Assembly (NCBI GenBank): GCA_964016885.1
Contig: OZ024743.1
Coordinates: 89,280,001-89,344,000 of the forward strand
Direction: 5' to 3'
DNA from: Eledone cirrhosa
Taxonomy: Eukaryota
DNA length: 64,000 bases
Position 1 is the stretch's first letter. Every line of letters starts with the position of its first letter. The notes beneath the pieces were generated by a model, which worked only from the letters and a program-made list of their open reading frames with translations, was not told the origin of the DNA and searched no databases. The position numbers were made by a program, and so were the translations under genes. This document shows positions 40,238-63,459 of this stretch, one piece after another.

Positions 40238-40441
40238 GAAAAGAGTCAGGAACCCGACGGCCGAGCTCCGGCCGTTTCGACAGCTAGATCCGAACTCTAA
40301 TGTTCGGATCTAGCTGTCGAAATCGCCGGAGCTCAGCCGTCGGGTTCCTGACTCTTTTCCTATTACCCACTCTACTACCCTAAATATCGAATACTCTGGT
40401 GCATTATGGTCCACCTGGTTCCTTACCACACTCTCTTTGTT
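40238..40441 (+). mobile_element. Fold-back family F1, copy 1 (inverted arm + half-hammerhead + common tail, in TA tract)
   Basis: ~60-bp inverted arms followed by the tail ttttcctattacccactctactaccctaa...ggttccttaccaca. Confidence 0.8.
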
Positions 40442-42127
40442 ATATATATACTTCTCTGAAAACGTATCGCTGCAAAATAAGTATTGTTAAGAGAATTTGT
40501 AAGGAAACCAAATGGGATGAAGATTAGGTTGGATGGGGGATGGGGAGGGGGACACAAACAGTAACTTTGTTACATATAGGTTATTTAAATTTAACAACAA
40601 CAACAGCAACAAATAATAATAATAATTATACAGTGACCTATAACAATAATTATTTAGTGTGATGGTGACTGGTAGAAACATAAAAACAAAACATTTTCTT
40701 CAATTTTAGATGTATTTCTATATTGAAGTCACTGCAAATTCCAACTTCCGTTCTGTAATAAAGTGAAAGTAAAACTGAAAGTGAAGAGGTGGATGTGACG
40801 TAACGACATTAGATAAGGAGTGAAATACGAAATATATGTAAATTAAGTGATGTGAAATATATCATATATGTAGTTAACTGTCGTATATATTTCATTGGGC
40901 TGTGAAATAAGATTAATGAATGTCCGTTAACGGTTTTAAAATATATTTCTTCATGTAGGAGCACAAATATCTACTGTTACACATACTCATATGAATGTTA
41001 CATGGTAAGATACCCCCCCACACACACACATACACATATATATATGTATATATATTGTATATATGTATGTATATGTATGGAGAGAGAGAGAGAGAGAGAG
41101 AGAGAGAGAGAAAGAGAAAATCTGTGGTGCTGAAAAGGCTTGCTGAACACAAGCTGAAACTACTAGGCGCTGTCGTCGGGATTTTACCCCCCTCTCCCCC
41201 TCTCTCTCTCTCTCGCTCTCTCTTTATATATACATATAGTGTATGTGGTTCTGTGAATTACTGGAGGTGGTACCAAAAAGGACCATTCGATGCACAGGCA
41301 GAGTGTATATATTAAGAAAAATATGCTTACATCTATATATAAATTTGAGCAACTTCCGTCCGCCAGTCCACCACACAATGTGCGTGTCTGTGTGTGTTTG
41401 TGTGAATATACGTGTGTGTAAAAGGAAAGAAGGGGATGGCGATAAAACTATAGTAAAACAGTTTCTGGCGTTCTATTTGCTACGCTGTGTGTGAGTATAT
41501 GTGTATGCGTTTGTGTAAATCTATGTGTGTTTGTGTGAATGTATGTGTGTGTTTGTGTGAATATCTGTCTGTGAGTATGTATTTTTGTAAGTGTGTCCGT
41601 GTTTGTGCGTTTATATTTATATACGCATATATATAAATGTATACATATACACATACACATACGCACACTCATATATACATTAAGAAACATTTTAGGGTTT
41701 ATATCTTAAATAAAGACTAGGAAGGACAATGAATGGCGACAACCCAATAATCTTTATAGTTCCAAGTAAAATATAATTTTGAGTACAGTCGTATTTTATT
41801 AACAAATTCATAGATACACGTATTATATTAATATTTAATATTAATTCTCATATTCCGACCTGAGAAATAGATCCTTAATGATTGGACACATCTCATCACG
41901 GTCTTTAGCAACTCTCTGCGGATCACCTCGGTTATCATTCATTTAACTGTAGCTGTTCTACAACCAAATGTTCAATGGTCTCTTTCGTCGCACAGACTTC
42001 CGCTTCCGGTGGTGTCTATCTTAATTCTATCATTGTATACACACACACACACACACACACACACACACACACACACACACACACATACACACACGCATAT
42101 AAATATATATATATACATACATATATA

Positions 42128-42930
42128 TCTGTATATATATAACATTAAGTAGGTGTGTGTGTGTGTGTATTACCTATAGGGGCCTACATCTTGCGACCGA
42201 TTTTCATGAAAATTTACAGGCTCATAGATTAGTCATCGGGGAGTCTTTTCTATATACCAGCGTATCGTTTTTTTTTATTCTGGGGTCATTCTGCAGATAA
42301 AATCGATAGGGGGTCACCTTTTTTTAGGTATCGAAAAATAAGATTTTTGGCTCTAGCTCCCACATTTTGTCACCGATTTCGTTCAAATTTTAAAGCAAAA
42401 TACAATTTATCTTTGTACATCCTGTAATGGCTTCATATTTTTCATTTGTTGTTCAGGAACGGCGTGGCAGCCGCTTAAATATTCAAAAATACCACTTCTA
42501 GACTCAAATTTCCACTTTTTCGGCTCTAGCTCCCACATTAATCAACCTACTTTGTTCAAAATTTACACTACGCTAGATCTGATTATCTCACGTCTTAAAG
42601 TGGCTTTACATTTTTGATTTTTTGTTCAGGAACGGCGTGGCAGCCGCTTAAATATTCGAAAATACCACCTCTTCGCTCAAATTTCCACCGTTTCGGCTCT
42701 AGCTCCGACATTTTTCAACCGATTTCGTTCAAATTCGAAACTCCCTCCCCCAGCATGCCCCTTCGTCAGTCACCCGCGTTTCTCAGTGATAGAGGTCATC
42801 ACCACCCTCCCTCGCATGGCCTGTGTGTGACCATAGATGAGTCATCGAGAAGCAGTCGTTAAGATCAACACCTTTTCATCAAAGCAGATATTATTTTACC
42901 TACCCAGGCAACGCTGGGTACTGCTGCTAG
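42128..42930 (+). mobile_element. Non-autonomous Helitron-like element
   Basis: 5' TC after A; internal ~190-bp tandem subrepeats; 3' hairpin ACCCAG-gcaacg-CTGGGT then CTAG followed by T. Confidence 0.75.
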
Positions 42931-43288
42931 TATATATATATATATATATATATATATATATATATATATATATATATATATATATATATATATGAATTAT
43001 TGACTTGATTTTTTTCATTTTTTCCTCTCTTTACGTTGCCTCACCATTCGTGTCTGTTTACATGTCTTTCTCTTTCTCCACCCAACTCTTTTTATCCCAA
43101 TAACTTATTTTAGTTATTGTATCGCCCTAGCTGGAGCTATATTGTCTGTAATGCGAAGAAATATCTATGATGGCTAGTAGACAACTGATGATGGATATTC
43201 CTTCTATTTCTATTCTTCATTTTTTTATACTTAAATGCAACAACACAGCTCGCCATTTTTGATTTATATATAATATATATATATATAT

Positions 43289-43478
43289 AACAAAGGAAGT
43301 GTGGTAAGGAACCAGGTGGACCATAACGCACCAGAATACTCGATACTATGGGTAGTAGAGTGGGTAATAGGAAAATGGTCAGGACCTCAACGGCTGAGCT
43401 CCGGTCGTTTCGACAGCTATTTCTGAAATAGATGTCGAAACGGCCAGAGCTCAGCCATCGGGGTCCTGACCCTTTTCC
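43289..43478 (-). mobile_element. Fold-back family F1, copy 2
   Basis: Reverse-oriented copy with the same tail and arms; TA tracts on both sides. Confidence 0.8.
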
Positions 43479-60585: not shown

Positions 60586-60639
60586 TATATATATATATAT
60601 ATATATATATATATATATATATATATATATATATATATA

Positions 60640-60992
60640 ATTGGTGTTGGATGCTTAAAGCGTCCGTATGCGGTAGGCCGTACGAGCACTCGATGCCCTC
60701 ATAGAGCAGAGTATGATATCACAGAAAAAAGAGAATCAGTGTTGCGACGAAAGGAATTTATTGGACATATTACAATTGTTTCTCGGGCGACCAGCTCCAG
60801 GCACGATCGATATGGTGATCAAACCTGACTCTGAAATCGCGCGGTCCTCGGATACGTCTCGATTCTACGAAGCAGATTTTCCTAAATCTGCTTCGTAGAA
60901 TCGATCGTGCCTGGAGCTGGTCGCCCGAGAAACAATTGTAATATGTCCAATAAATTCATTTCGTCGCAACACTGATTCTCTTTTTTCTGTGA
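60640..60992 (-). mobile_element. Fold-back element with ~95-bp arms and a nested hairpin, between TA tracts
   Basis: 60716-60810 is the inverse of 60900-60995; inner hairpin 60859-60904; GAAAC-aatt-GTA half-hammerhead motif. Confidence 0.68.
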
Positions 60993-63266
60993 TATATATA
61001 TATATATATATATATATATATATATATATATATATATATATATATGTATGTGTGTGTGTGTGTGTGTGTGTGTGTGTGTGTGTGTGTGTGTGTGTGTGTG
61101 TGTGTGTGTGTGTGTGTGTGTGTGTGTGTGTATATATAATATGGCCATCGTACAAGCTGTTTTCCTTTCAGATACAGAAAATACATATCCTGTTCAAACT
61201 GCTTCTATTAAGTTTGGCATGATGAAAAGCAGGTTGGGAAGAGTGTAGTGGTATTTTAAAGAGGTACATATGCTTCGAAATAGGTAACAGCGTTGGGATA
61301 AGCAGAGAAATGCATTTGTAAATAAATTAAGCTCGTCAGAATATGTGACAGAATAATTAATCTTAGATTAAGACAGCAACAGTGATTTGTGCATATGCAC
61401 CACAATCAGGAATGACAGATGCACAAAAGACCACTTCTATTCAGCTGTCGTCGATCGAAATCACGGTCGCTTGATGAACATTTTATTACACCGTAGTTAG
61501 CGGGTAGGGCCACATTTGCTTATAATGGTGAGAGATGGGACGAGACGGAGGCAATGACAGTGGGAGTTTTGTTCCATTGTGTTCGGACCTGATGTATATG
61601 TATATATTTATTTACCGCATCACATATACAAACATATAAACTTCTAACCTAAATTAATATTTTCATTACAGATCCCATGTTTGGTTTAAGCTTATCTATG
61701 TTGGTTTCGAGACTACCTGTCAACGATAGCCAATTGCAGGTGGGGTGGTGTGGGGTGCTCATGTGATTGGTCCTGGACATAAGTAGATAGAGTGAAGGCA
61801 CGTGGCTTAATAGTTAGAGTATTCAGTTCAGGATCGGAAGGCCGTAGTTCAATTTGAGTTGGCACGTTGTGTCATTGCGCAAGATATTTTGTTTGACCTT
61901 GTTTCAATCCACTCAACTGGTAAAAAATAAGTTGTATTTGTAATTCAAGGACCAGTTTTGTCACACACCATATCAAACTGAATCTCTCTAGGGGGTACAT
62001 CTGTTTGTCGAATGCTCAGCCACTTTCATGTTAATTTCACGAGCAGGTTGTTCCGTTGTTTGTACAACTGGAATGCTTGTCGTCGGAACCAACGGAGGTC
62101 CAACACATAGATTAATACATATATATAATACATATGACATAATCTATCCAGTCATCCTTCACGGTTTTAAGCACATTTGATAAAGGAAATTGACGTTATT
62201 TCTTTGAGATAGCATGTTAGCCCTACTGTGCTTGCGCATGTGCACACCACTCTCTCTATATATAAGCATGTATATGTATGTATGTATGTATGTATGTATG
62301 TATGTATGTATGTATGTATGTATGTATGTATGTATGTATGTATGCATGTATGTATGTACGTATGTATGTATGTATGTACGTCAGGTCACCAGTTGGTGCT
62401 ACTGGTAACATGTATCCCAGTACAACCTGTCTCATGGTCGGGTCGTTGGCGACTAAACTGGCAACCCCACCAAGGTTTCTTGGTGAGGAGGGTAACTTTG
62501 GACATCCTGCAGGACTAAAAACAAAACCTGTCAAAGAGCAAAGGAGTTCTTAAGAGTCAATGGCCATCCAAAATCAGCGGGAGAGATGACCCCTTAGCCT
62601 TTGTCAAGGCAGAATTCTAGGAGAAGGAAAACTCTGGTATAACACCTGCAACCCTGATGGTATCCAATGATGTTGACTTGTTCTTCTTTTTGGTAAATAT
62701 CATCTTGGTTAAGAGAGTGGGACTGGCTTTGTGCAGTGTCTTTGCTCACTATAAAAGGTTCACGGCACAGGCATTGCTTTATATCTGCAGATTTCTCTGC
62801 ACTTGTCGTCACATGGTACCATGGGTCCAGCACTATGTGTCAATAATTGTCACAAGTGTAGTGTTTGTACCAGAGTTTTCAAGTCGCTGGCTGGACTAAA
62901 AAGTCACACTCGTTCAGCGCATCGGTAGGGGTTCTCCTACATGGATATAAAGTAGTGGCGTACTCGAAAACGAGTTGGCATCCACCATGTACGTGTGCGT
63001 GTATGTATGTACATGTTTGTATGTATGTACGTTTATATGTATGTATGTACGTGTGTGTACGTACGTACGTATCTATGTATGTATATATGTATGCATGCAT
63101 GCATGTATGTATCTATGTACGTACGTATGTATGTACATATGTATTTATGTATGTATGTACGTACGTGTGTATGTACATATGAATGCATGTACGTATGTAT
63201 GTACGTATGTACGTACACACACACACACACACACACACACACACACACACTCACATATATATATAT

Positions 63267-63459
63267 AACGAAGGAATTGTGGTAAGGAACTAGATGGACC
63301 ATAACGCAACAGAGTACTCAATACTTAGGGTAGTAGAGTGGGTAATAGGAAAAGGTTTGACCCCGACGGCCGAGCTCAAGCCGTTTCGACGGCTATTTCT
63401 GGACTCAGAAATAGCCGTCGAAACGGCTTGAGCTCTGCCGTCGGGGTCATACCTTTTCC
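63267..63459 (-). mobile_element. Fold-back family F1, copy 6
   Basis: Reverse-oriented; arms meet at gacggctatttct-ggactc-agaaatagccgtc. Confidence 0.82.

What the first reader, a model, noticed from the sequence alone, without database searches (positions are those of the whole stretch)
40238..63459. Family F1: six copies all fold back at the predicted hammerhead stem II, a candidate mechanism for inverted 5' ends
Seen: copies at 40238, 43289, 48586 (arm only), 51269, 53660 and 63267 share CCGTC-GAA-ACGGCT-tgagctc-AGCCGT-C-GGGGTC. This is the 3' half of a hammerhead (stem II 3' strand, GAAA, stem III, GUC triplet). No copy has CTGANGA. Where it should lie, an inverted copy of the downstream ~50 nt begins, and it always ends at ttttcc|TA, merging into (TA)n. 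The two arms of each copy share copy-specific variants (agagtcagga/tcctgactct; acaagtaag/cttacttgt; aatatttg/caaatatt). Inference: the arm is made anew at each insertion when the cDNA 3' end snaps back on the stem II hairpin and self-primes, then joins the target through TA microhomology. The ribozyme fold would thus dictate insertion architecture and destroy the ribozyme in daughter copies.
Basis: partly seen in the sequence, partly recalled or inferred. Interest (0 to 1): 0.8.

Follow-up and report, generated by a model that had tools for sequence, protein, structure and literature searches.

The report
Penelope hairpins: copies stopping at cap
These small hairpin repeats are end-pieces of a Penelope-type jumping gene whose two arms stop at one fixed spot and often carry one extra G, so they are likely two short DNA copies that ran off the capped start of the element's RNA and were joined back to back, which would explain how such elements get their inverted ends.

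Summary
The six copies are real. They are ends of a Hydra-like Penelope-like retrotransposon with a 3.53-kb unit and an intact 717-aa RT + GIY-YIG ORF elsewhere in the genome. Long copies carry a whole type I hammerhead, with a UUGANAA (U3-A8) core rather than CUGANGA.

The stem II snap-back is not supported. Its predicted junction has 9 matches, against 15,247 exact tail copies. The tail-less arm reaches further than the tailed arm in 18 of 73 hairpins, and it also occurs alone.

Instead, arms end 33-45 nt upstream of the cleavage site (104 of 164 ends), mostly at an initiator-like motif in loop II. An untemplated G precedes that base in 50 of 96 single copies, against 0 of 100 at a control breakpoint. 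Six chimeras jump from this site to downstream RNA.

Best reading: both target strands prime at two sites near the 5' end of the element's own RNA, run off its cap, and are joined. The start site is inferred; no RNA data were available. Inverted pLTRs and tails are published. Earlier scan notes on this genome found Hydra-type two-armed ends; my search of them for the cap run-off found nothing.

The parts
40238..40297 (-). Copy 1 tail-less arm (subfamily B), from +16 to the -40 site, plus one untemplated base (G on the element strand) at 40297. Element coordinates: first base after the predicted cleavage site = +1.
   Evidence: B-type long copies
40302..40440 (+). Copy 1 tailed arm, -39 to +97; 4-nt filler 40298-40301 between the arms
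43290..43424 (-). Copy 2 tailed arm, +97 to about -35; older, diverged copy
43425..43478 (+). Copy 2 tail-less arm, about -34 to the tail-less end
48585..48642 (+). Copy 3: single tail-less piece running exactly from -40 to +17 between two (TA)n arrays
   Evidence: 46 copies of this form
51269..51313 (-). Copy 4 tail-less arm, +17 to -27
51314..51450 (+). Copy 4 tailed arm, -39 to +97; 96% identical to the young intact unit in L227
53664..53715 (-). Copy 5 tail-less arm, +17 to -34
53716..53852 (+). Copy 5 tailed arm from -40. Holds the hammerhead 3' half (stem II 3' strand, GAAA, stem III, GUC at 53754-53756, stem I 3' strand from 53757) and the 80-nt tail with the first bulged hairpin (about 53782-53805).
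63268..63406 (-). Copy 6 tailed arm, +97 to -40 (63405). Base 63406 can be the extra G of this arm or the first base of the other arm.
63407..63459 (+). Copy 6 tail-less arm, -35 to +17

Best explanation
F1 copies are end-pieces of a Hydra-like Penelope-like retrotransposon, and each hairpin is likely two short cDNAs, primed from the two cut strands of a (TA)n target, that ran off the capped 5' end of the element's own RNA and were joined back to back. Shown: the pieces are continuous with a 3.53-kb tandem unit encoding RT and GIY-YIG; the ends fall at two fixed TA sites (+17 and +97); arms stop at about -40 with an extra G; hairpins pair one tailed with one tail-less arm. Inferred: transcription starts at -40, inside hammerhead loop II, so the RNA begins with only the ribozyme's 3' half and has both priming sites within about 140 nt of its cap. 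Inferred: each target strand uses one of the two sites, probably on the same RNA. Inferred: the cDNA 3' ends are joined by end-joining or microhomology, or one is lost or joins the target directly (single copies). Long copies would arise when RT starts in the second unit of a read-through or circular RNA, or jumps from the cap to another position.
For: Intact 717-aa ORF in tandem arrays with the tail running on into the 5' UTR. 104 of 164 arm ends lie at -45..-33, with 41 at -40/-39 and only 15 beyond -45. Summed contig depth in a DNA run steps up about 15-fold across -40 and falls more than 50-fold after +97. G precedes the -40 base in 50 of 96 single copies abutting TA (47 of 93 after merging one array), where the template has T. 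The control breakpoint has 0 G in 100 listed of 182, and G follows such TA runs in 4% of cases. Tail-less singles have the G in 25 of 46. 26 of 28 one-base hairpin centres are the C/G expected from a cap, not the templated A/T, and 5 of 50 loci have it on both arms. Six of 30 loci join unit position 1-4 to six different downstream positions. 106 of 112 hairpins are tailed plus tail-less. TTAGT at the stop site is invariant in 9 aligned long copies of several subfamilies. Literature: untemplated G marks capped L1 and SVA templates (PMC4859970); the anole PLE cuts and extends both strands and starts at two sites bounding the tail (PMC11167929); Penelope's promoter lies in the pLTR (PMC2377424).
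Against: No RNA evidence: the single RNA run gave one contig outside the region. About half of the -40 singles lack the G, and many arms stop at -34..-38, which needs trimming during joining. Terminal-transferase addition at an uncapped end could also give the G. The same-RNA step requires strand displacement, which was not tested. 229 rare alleles are private to one arm against 11 shared, and the arm tree is mostly unresolved. 21 of the 91 breakpoint calls were corrected by eye. Later deletions inside palindromes could shorten one arm. The TATA-like word 31 nt upstream is absent in subfamily B.
Confidence: 0.72

Rival explanations
1. Same two-cDNA architecture, but -40 is an uncapped RNA end (nuclease cut or processing site) or a strong RT block, and the extra base is added by the RT without a template.
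For: Arm ends spread over -45..-33; half the copies lack the G; loop II can fold into a small inner hairpin next to the site. Untemplated addition at run-off ends is common for RTs (my knowledge).
Against: The added base is specifically G (26 of 28). The site follows an initiator-like motif across subfamilies with unrelated loop II sequence. A fold-induced stall would be expected at the 3' foot of a stem, not after it has been read through (inference).
Confidence: 0.15
2. One cDNA from the tail site runs to the RNA end, folds back by chance microhomology, copies itself, and joins the target at the internal TA (general snap-back; self-priming was proposed in PMC3846280).
For: Arms share rare alleles above chance; some junctions hold short local fold-backs and fillers; it may account for a minority of copies.
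Against: The tail-less arm is longer in 18 of 73, including copies whose tailed arm stops before the shared region. Centres of a single base (26 of 50 loci) are too tight for a priming hairpin. Tail-less pieces occur alone with the G and, in L217, L218 and L223, continue into RNA sequence absent from the other arm.
Confidence: 0.08
3. One reading: the cDNA snaps back on hammerhead stem II, so the ribozyme fold sets the inversion point.
For: A real stem II lies next to the breakpoints and shows compensatory change.
Against: The predicted junction has 9 matches genome-wide, and the one I inspected (L101) is a mutated ordinary arm. Real junctions delete most of loop II and the 5' strand of the stem.
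Confidence: 0.03
4. A MITE or other fixed-TIR DNA element, or a non-autonomous hairpin unit that is copied whole.
For: Short, very abundant, inverted arms, TA flanks.
Against: Continuous with an RT + GIY-YIG element; central junctions differ between copies; tailed and tail-less arms are intermixed in the tree, though it is weakly resolved.
Confidence: 0.02

Closest known systems
Hydra clade of C-terminal EN+ Penelope-like elements (Craig et al. 2021, PMC8557442)
   Same: Single ORF, RT then GIY-YIG, RW[K/R], DKT, CxCX5C linker, CxxC and CxH near the end, (TA)n targets, 3' hammerhead, tandem and inverted insertions with a tail at one end.
   Different: Unit 3.53 kb (listed families mostly under 3 kb); hammerhead with a U3-A8 core, 33-nt loop II and 5-bp stem III, unlike the canonical ones in their File S2, including Hydra-1_Obim; 80-nt tail against 30-40 nt; its stem III word was not found in their supplement.
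Poseidon element PAc of the green anole (Frangieh et al. 2024, PMC11167929)
   Same: Two internal RT start sites that bound the tail; both DNA strands cut and extended; uncleaved RNA used as template; 5' truncation of the RNA shortens the product.
   Different: In vitro, different clade. The parts I read do not link inverted arms to run-off at a cap, and there the sites lie inside the ORF; here they lie in the 5' UTR.
Penelope of Drosophila virilis and Adineta vaga PLEs (PMC2377424, PMC3846280)
   Same: Promoter inside the pLTR, partial tandems, inverted 5' pLTR with junction palindromes, TATA and Inr-like motifs.
   Different: Those papers state no obvious mechanism for pLTR regeneration and favour self-priming, possibly on an antisense template. 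The data here point to two sense-templated cDNAs ending at the RNA start.
L1 twin priming and cap-derived untemplated G (reviewed in PMC4859970); retroviral minus-strand strong-stop DNA (recalled)
   Same: Both target strands prime; an extra G marks the RNA start; priming close to the 5' end gives a short run-off cDNA that can jump.
   Different: L1 inversions do not duplicate sequence and use variable internal sites. Retroviruses prime with tRNA away from the chromosome and use RNase H.
U3-A8 hammerhead variants of Schistosoma Cercyon PLEs (Cervera and de la Pena 2014, PMC4209133)
   Same: Type I motif, U3-A8 core covariation, long helix II, paired motifs on opposite strands.
   Different: Theirs are minimal motifs without a stable helix III; this one has a full helix III and a predicted transcription start in loop II.

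Membership tests
Penelope-like elements (EN+) | Single ORF with RT and GIY-YIG endonuclease | tested here: met
   717-aa ORF from the first ATG with YRDD and VIY..YIG. Pfam support is weak: GIY-YIG E=0.069 and no RT hit on L061 pieces.
Penelope-like elements (EN+) | Tandem/pLTR organisation, inverted 5'-truncated copy, tail at one end | tested here: met
   3.53-kb tandem arrays; inverted arms; tail on one arm in 106 of 112 hairpins and at one end of both arrays seen whole
Hydra clade | RWK motif, DKT, CxCX5C linker, no CCHH, CxxC and CxH beside the conserved E and N | tested here: met
   Read by eye from the translation against section 11 of PMC8557442; RWK appears as RWR
Hydra clade | Insertion into (TA)n | tested here: met
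Hydra clade | Canonical (CUGANGA) hammerhead | tested here: not met
   Core is UUGANAA; no Rfam hammerhead hit. Hence filed as Hydra-like, not as a member.
Hydra clade | Placement in the RT tree with named Hydra families | not tested
   No named reference proteins were held; the homologues are almost all unnamed
Type I hammerhead ribozyme | Three helices around the core, G10.1-C11.1, GAAA, A15.1-U16.1, NUH triplet | tested here: met
   MFE gives the three-way junction in 2 of 4 references, with helices I-III also in a third; 92% of cells paired and 3 pairs changed on both sides in helix II among 9 related rows
Type I hammerhead ribozyme | Core C3-G8 or its covariant U3-A8, with N7 free | tested here: met
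   46 of 55 core matches are UUGANAA with N = A 16, C 15, G 11, T 4 (copies are not independent); variant described in PMC4209133
Type I hammerhead ribozyme | Self-cleavage | not testable with these tools
   Genomic proxy inconclusive: about 3 of 18 short single copies begin at +1, no clear peak
MITE / TIR DNA transposon | Fixed terminal inverted repeats and constant interior | tested here: not met
   Asymmetric ends, variable centres, continuity with an RT element
Non-LTR retrozyme | Small non-coding tandem monomer with a complete hammerhead | tested here: not met
   Short copies lack the 5' half of the ribozyme; the tandem unit is 3.53 kb and coding

The most novel reading that the evidence does not exclude
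Penelope-like elements replicate through a strong-stop step. RT primes from the target next to the RNA cap, runs off it, and jumps to the RNA's far end, where a 40-nt stretch (cap site to hammerhead cut) is repeated like a retroviral R region. That jump would regenerate the pseudo-LTR; failed jumps leave the hairpin minis. A start site inside the ribozyme would keep the 5' copy uncuttable while the 3' copy makes the acceptor end.
Probability: 0.3. Interest if true: 0.85.

Novelty: new variant of a known kind. Interest (0 to 1): 0.62.

Why it matters
How Penelope-like elements, the sister group of telomerase RT, make their tandem and inverted ends is stated as open in the papers read (PMC8557442, PMC2377424, PMC3846280). 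This family supplies tens of thousands of frozen intermediates with two fixed starts and one fixed stop, and a footprint (the extra G) that can be sought in any genome. It turns the question into direct tests: map the cap, and run the enzyme on capped RNA. It also warns annotators that such MITE-like hairpins can be aborted retrotransposition products.

Tried and rejected
Rfam scans found no hammerhead in F1 copies or in a long copy. The generic repeat finder was swamped by (TA)n. A search for copies beginning at the cleavage site showed no clear peak, so cleavage in vivo stays open. The RNA test failed: one RNA run, with one contig outside the region. The tree of tailed versus tail-less long arms (28 rows, 123 columns) had 1 starred fork of 25; arms are intermixed and only the L061 pair grouped. 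A spliced leader or upstream exon at -40 was rejected because no constant sequence other than one G precedes it. I recalled an octopus SINE named Twhin; the paper was not held and the search listing (15 of 17 shown) had nothing relevant, so identity with it is untested. The sequence look-up in earlier findings gave an unrelated hit.
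Full report
Observation. The six copies are at the stated places between (TA)n arrays. Five are hairpins with a tailed and a tail-less arm; 48585-48642 is a lone tail-less arm. I number the element from the predicted cleavage site (first base after GUC = +1). 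Ends fall at +17 (tail-less) or +97 (tailed), each just before a native TA. The family is large: 15,247 exact matches to a tail word and 5,790 to a tail-less end pattern in a 3.0-Gb genome, with 0 for the reversed controls.

What it belongs to. A word just upstream of the short copies had 1,743 matches and led to long copies. L061 holds RT and GIY-YIG pieces. The tail runs on into a 5' UTR in 232 places, and tandem arrays of a 3.53-kb unit carry an intact ORF of 717 aa from the first ATG, at unit position 232. It has RWR, DKT, YRDD, CxCX5C, GIY-YIG, CxxC and CxH and lacks CCHH, matching the Hydra clade description (PMC8557442 section 11). 2,049 mostly unnamed proteins match at E <= 1e-30; the best full-length ones are about 42% identical. 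Pfam support is weak. I call it Hydra-like because its ribozyme is non-canonical and no tree with named families was made.

The ribozyme. N7 takes all four bases in 46 of 55 core matches (70 arms were collected and 15 gave no core match). U3-A8 is a described PLE variant (PMC4209133). Subfamily B changes stem II on both strands. In 9 aligned rows 92% of cells pair and 3 pairs change on both sides (the rows are related, so this is modest support). Rfam does not detect it. Cleavage is untested, and the genomic proxy was inconclusive.

Breakpoints. I mapped 91 tailed arms taken from the first matches on contig C1, a sample biased to young copies. Three matches already fetched under another search and the last six listed were left out; the three would add four ends beyond -45. 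21 calls were corrected by eye. 73 arms have an inverted tail-less partner. Of 164 ends, 104 lie at -45..-33, 41 of them at -40/-39, and 15 lie beyond -45. Contigs of a public DNA run show the same block: summed depth 0.2 million just upstream, 2.7-3.7 million from about -25 to +97, and 0.05 million just after (not a copy number, and possibly the source sample).

Against snap-back. The junction predicted from native stem II has 9 matches. The tail-less arm reaches 10 nt or more further than the tailed arm in 18 of 73 hairpins, the reverse in 9, and in several the tailed arm stops before the shared region. Tail-less pieces stand alone. Among 50 listed of 509 hairpins with both arms at -40, 28 have a one-base centre, too tight for a priming loop. 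106 of 112 hairpins combine one tailed and one tail-less arm, 4 have two tail-less arms and 2 were scored as two tailed.

For run-off at an RNA start. The template base at -41 is T. In single copies abutting a TA run it is G in 50 of 96 (T 22, A 14, C 10; 47 of 93 after merging a four-copy array; one TA phase only). At a control breakpoint at -30 there is no G in the 100 listed of 182, and G follows such runs in 4% of cases. Tail-less singles have it in 25 of 46 (overlapping). 26 of the 28 one-base centres are C/G. Window copy 40238 shows the same base. Untemplated G at 5' ends of L1 and SVA is read as copying of the cap (PMC4859970). The site lies in TTAGT, invariant across subfamilies whose loop II otherwise differs. 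That it resembles an initiator, with a TATA-like word 31 nt upstream in subfamilies A and C only, rests on recalled consensus motifs. Six of 30 loci join unit position 1-4 to six different downstream positions (203 to 959), as expected if RT reached a hard end and jumped; in three of them the jumping arm is the tail-less one. Most of the other loci have a seamless tandem junction, which fits read-through RNA, circular RNA or a precise jump equally well.

Model. Inferred: RNA from tandem copies starts at -40. The protein cuts both strands of (TA)n, each end primes at one of two sites about 58 and 138 nt from the cap, both cDNAs run off, and their 3' ends are joined, often with trimming. The anole PLE cuts and extends both strands and starts at two sites bounding the tail (PMC11167929), and Penelope's promoter is in the pLTR (PMC2377424). 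Earlier scan notes describe twin bulged hairpins just beyond the two ends of Hydra-type elements in this genome. Here the second folds in both copies tested that carry it, and the first in 1 of 4. The daughters lose the ribozyme because its 5' half is not in the template, not because it folds. No RNA data could test the start.

Known and new. Inverted 5' copies, tails and (TA)n targeting are published (PMC8557442), and self-priming was proposed for junction palindromes (PMC3846280). I did not find run-off at a cap, or a start site inside the hammerhead, in searches (listings only; most subscription papers are not held), nor in the scan's notes. Papers seen: PMC8557442 abstract, passages, section 11, a supplement search and part 2 of 59 of the supplement; PMC11167929 and PMC4209133 parts 1-2 of 4; PMC2377424, PMC3681739, PMC3846280 and PMC4859970 passages; bioRxiv 10.64898/2026.07.22.740005 abstract and passages, supplements not seen. 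Unread supplements of PMC11167929 could bear on genomic 5' ends.

Verdict. A real feature and a new family of a known kind of element. Interest 0.62.

Noticed in passing
window 5738-5809 (-): Rfam Hammerhead_HH9 match (37.7 bits, below the gathering score of 52) with a canonical core, in another TA-flanked repeat that has a direct duplication and a fold-back near 6101-6183; a separate hammerhead family.
   Followed up: no
window about 23900-36800 (-): Decayed LINE-like ORF pieces (endonuclease and RT-like translations), apparently more than one copy.
   Followed up: no
L227/L228, L231/L232, L233/L234, L235, L236: Near-identical tandem arrays of two to four 3.53-kb units, several with intact ORFs; both arrays seen at both ends have an inverted arm and the tail at one end only.
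   Followed up: partly
L227 3783-3900; window 53774-53815: Twin bulged hairpins 8 and 6 nt downstream of the two insertion ends; the second folds cleanly, the first only in some copies.
   Followed up: partly
L227 unit position 104: An out-of-frame upstream ATG inside the tail, 128 nt before the ORF's ATG; the ORF frame is also open upstream into the tail.
   Followed up: no
L061 1300-5260: Long inverted insertion whose tailed arm skips about 1.1 kb that the other arm keeps; the arms share private variants.
   Followed up: partly
L067 1216-2001; G000 C2 near 356,030,000: Short tandem arrays (58-nt and 299-nt periods) at or containing family sequence; possible satellites derived from it.
   Followed up: no
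window 11042-12778 and 18298-21164: An 86-nt minisatellite (20 copies, 99% alike) and a long 28/54-nt satellite.
   Followed up: no
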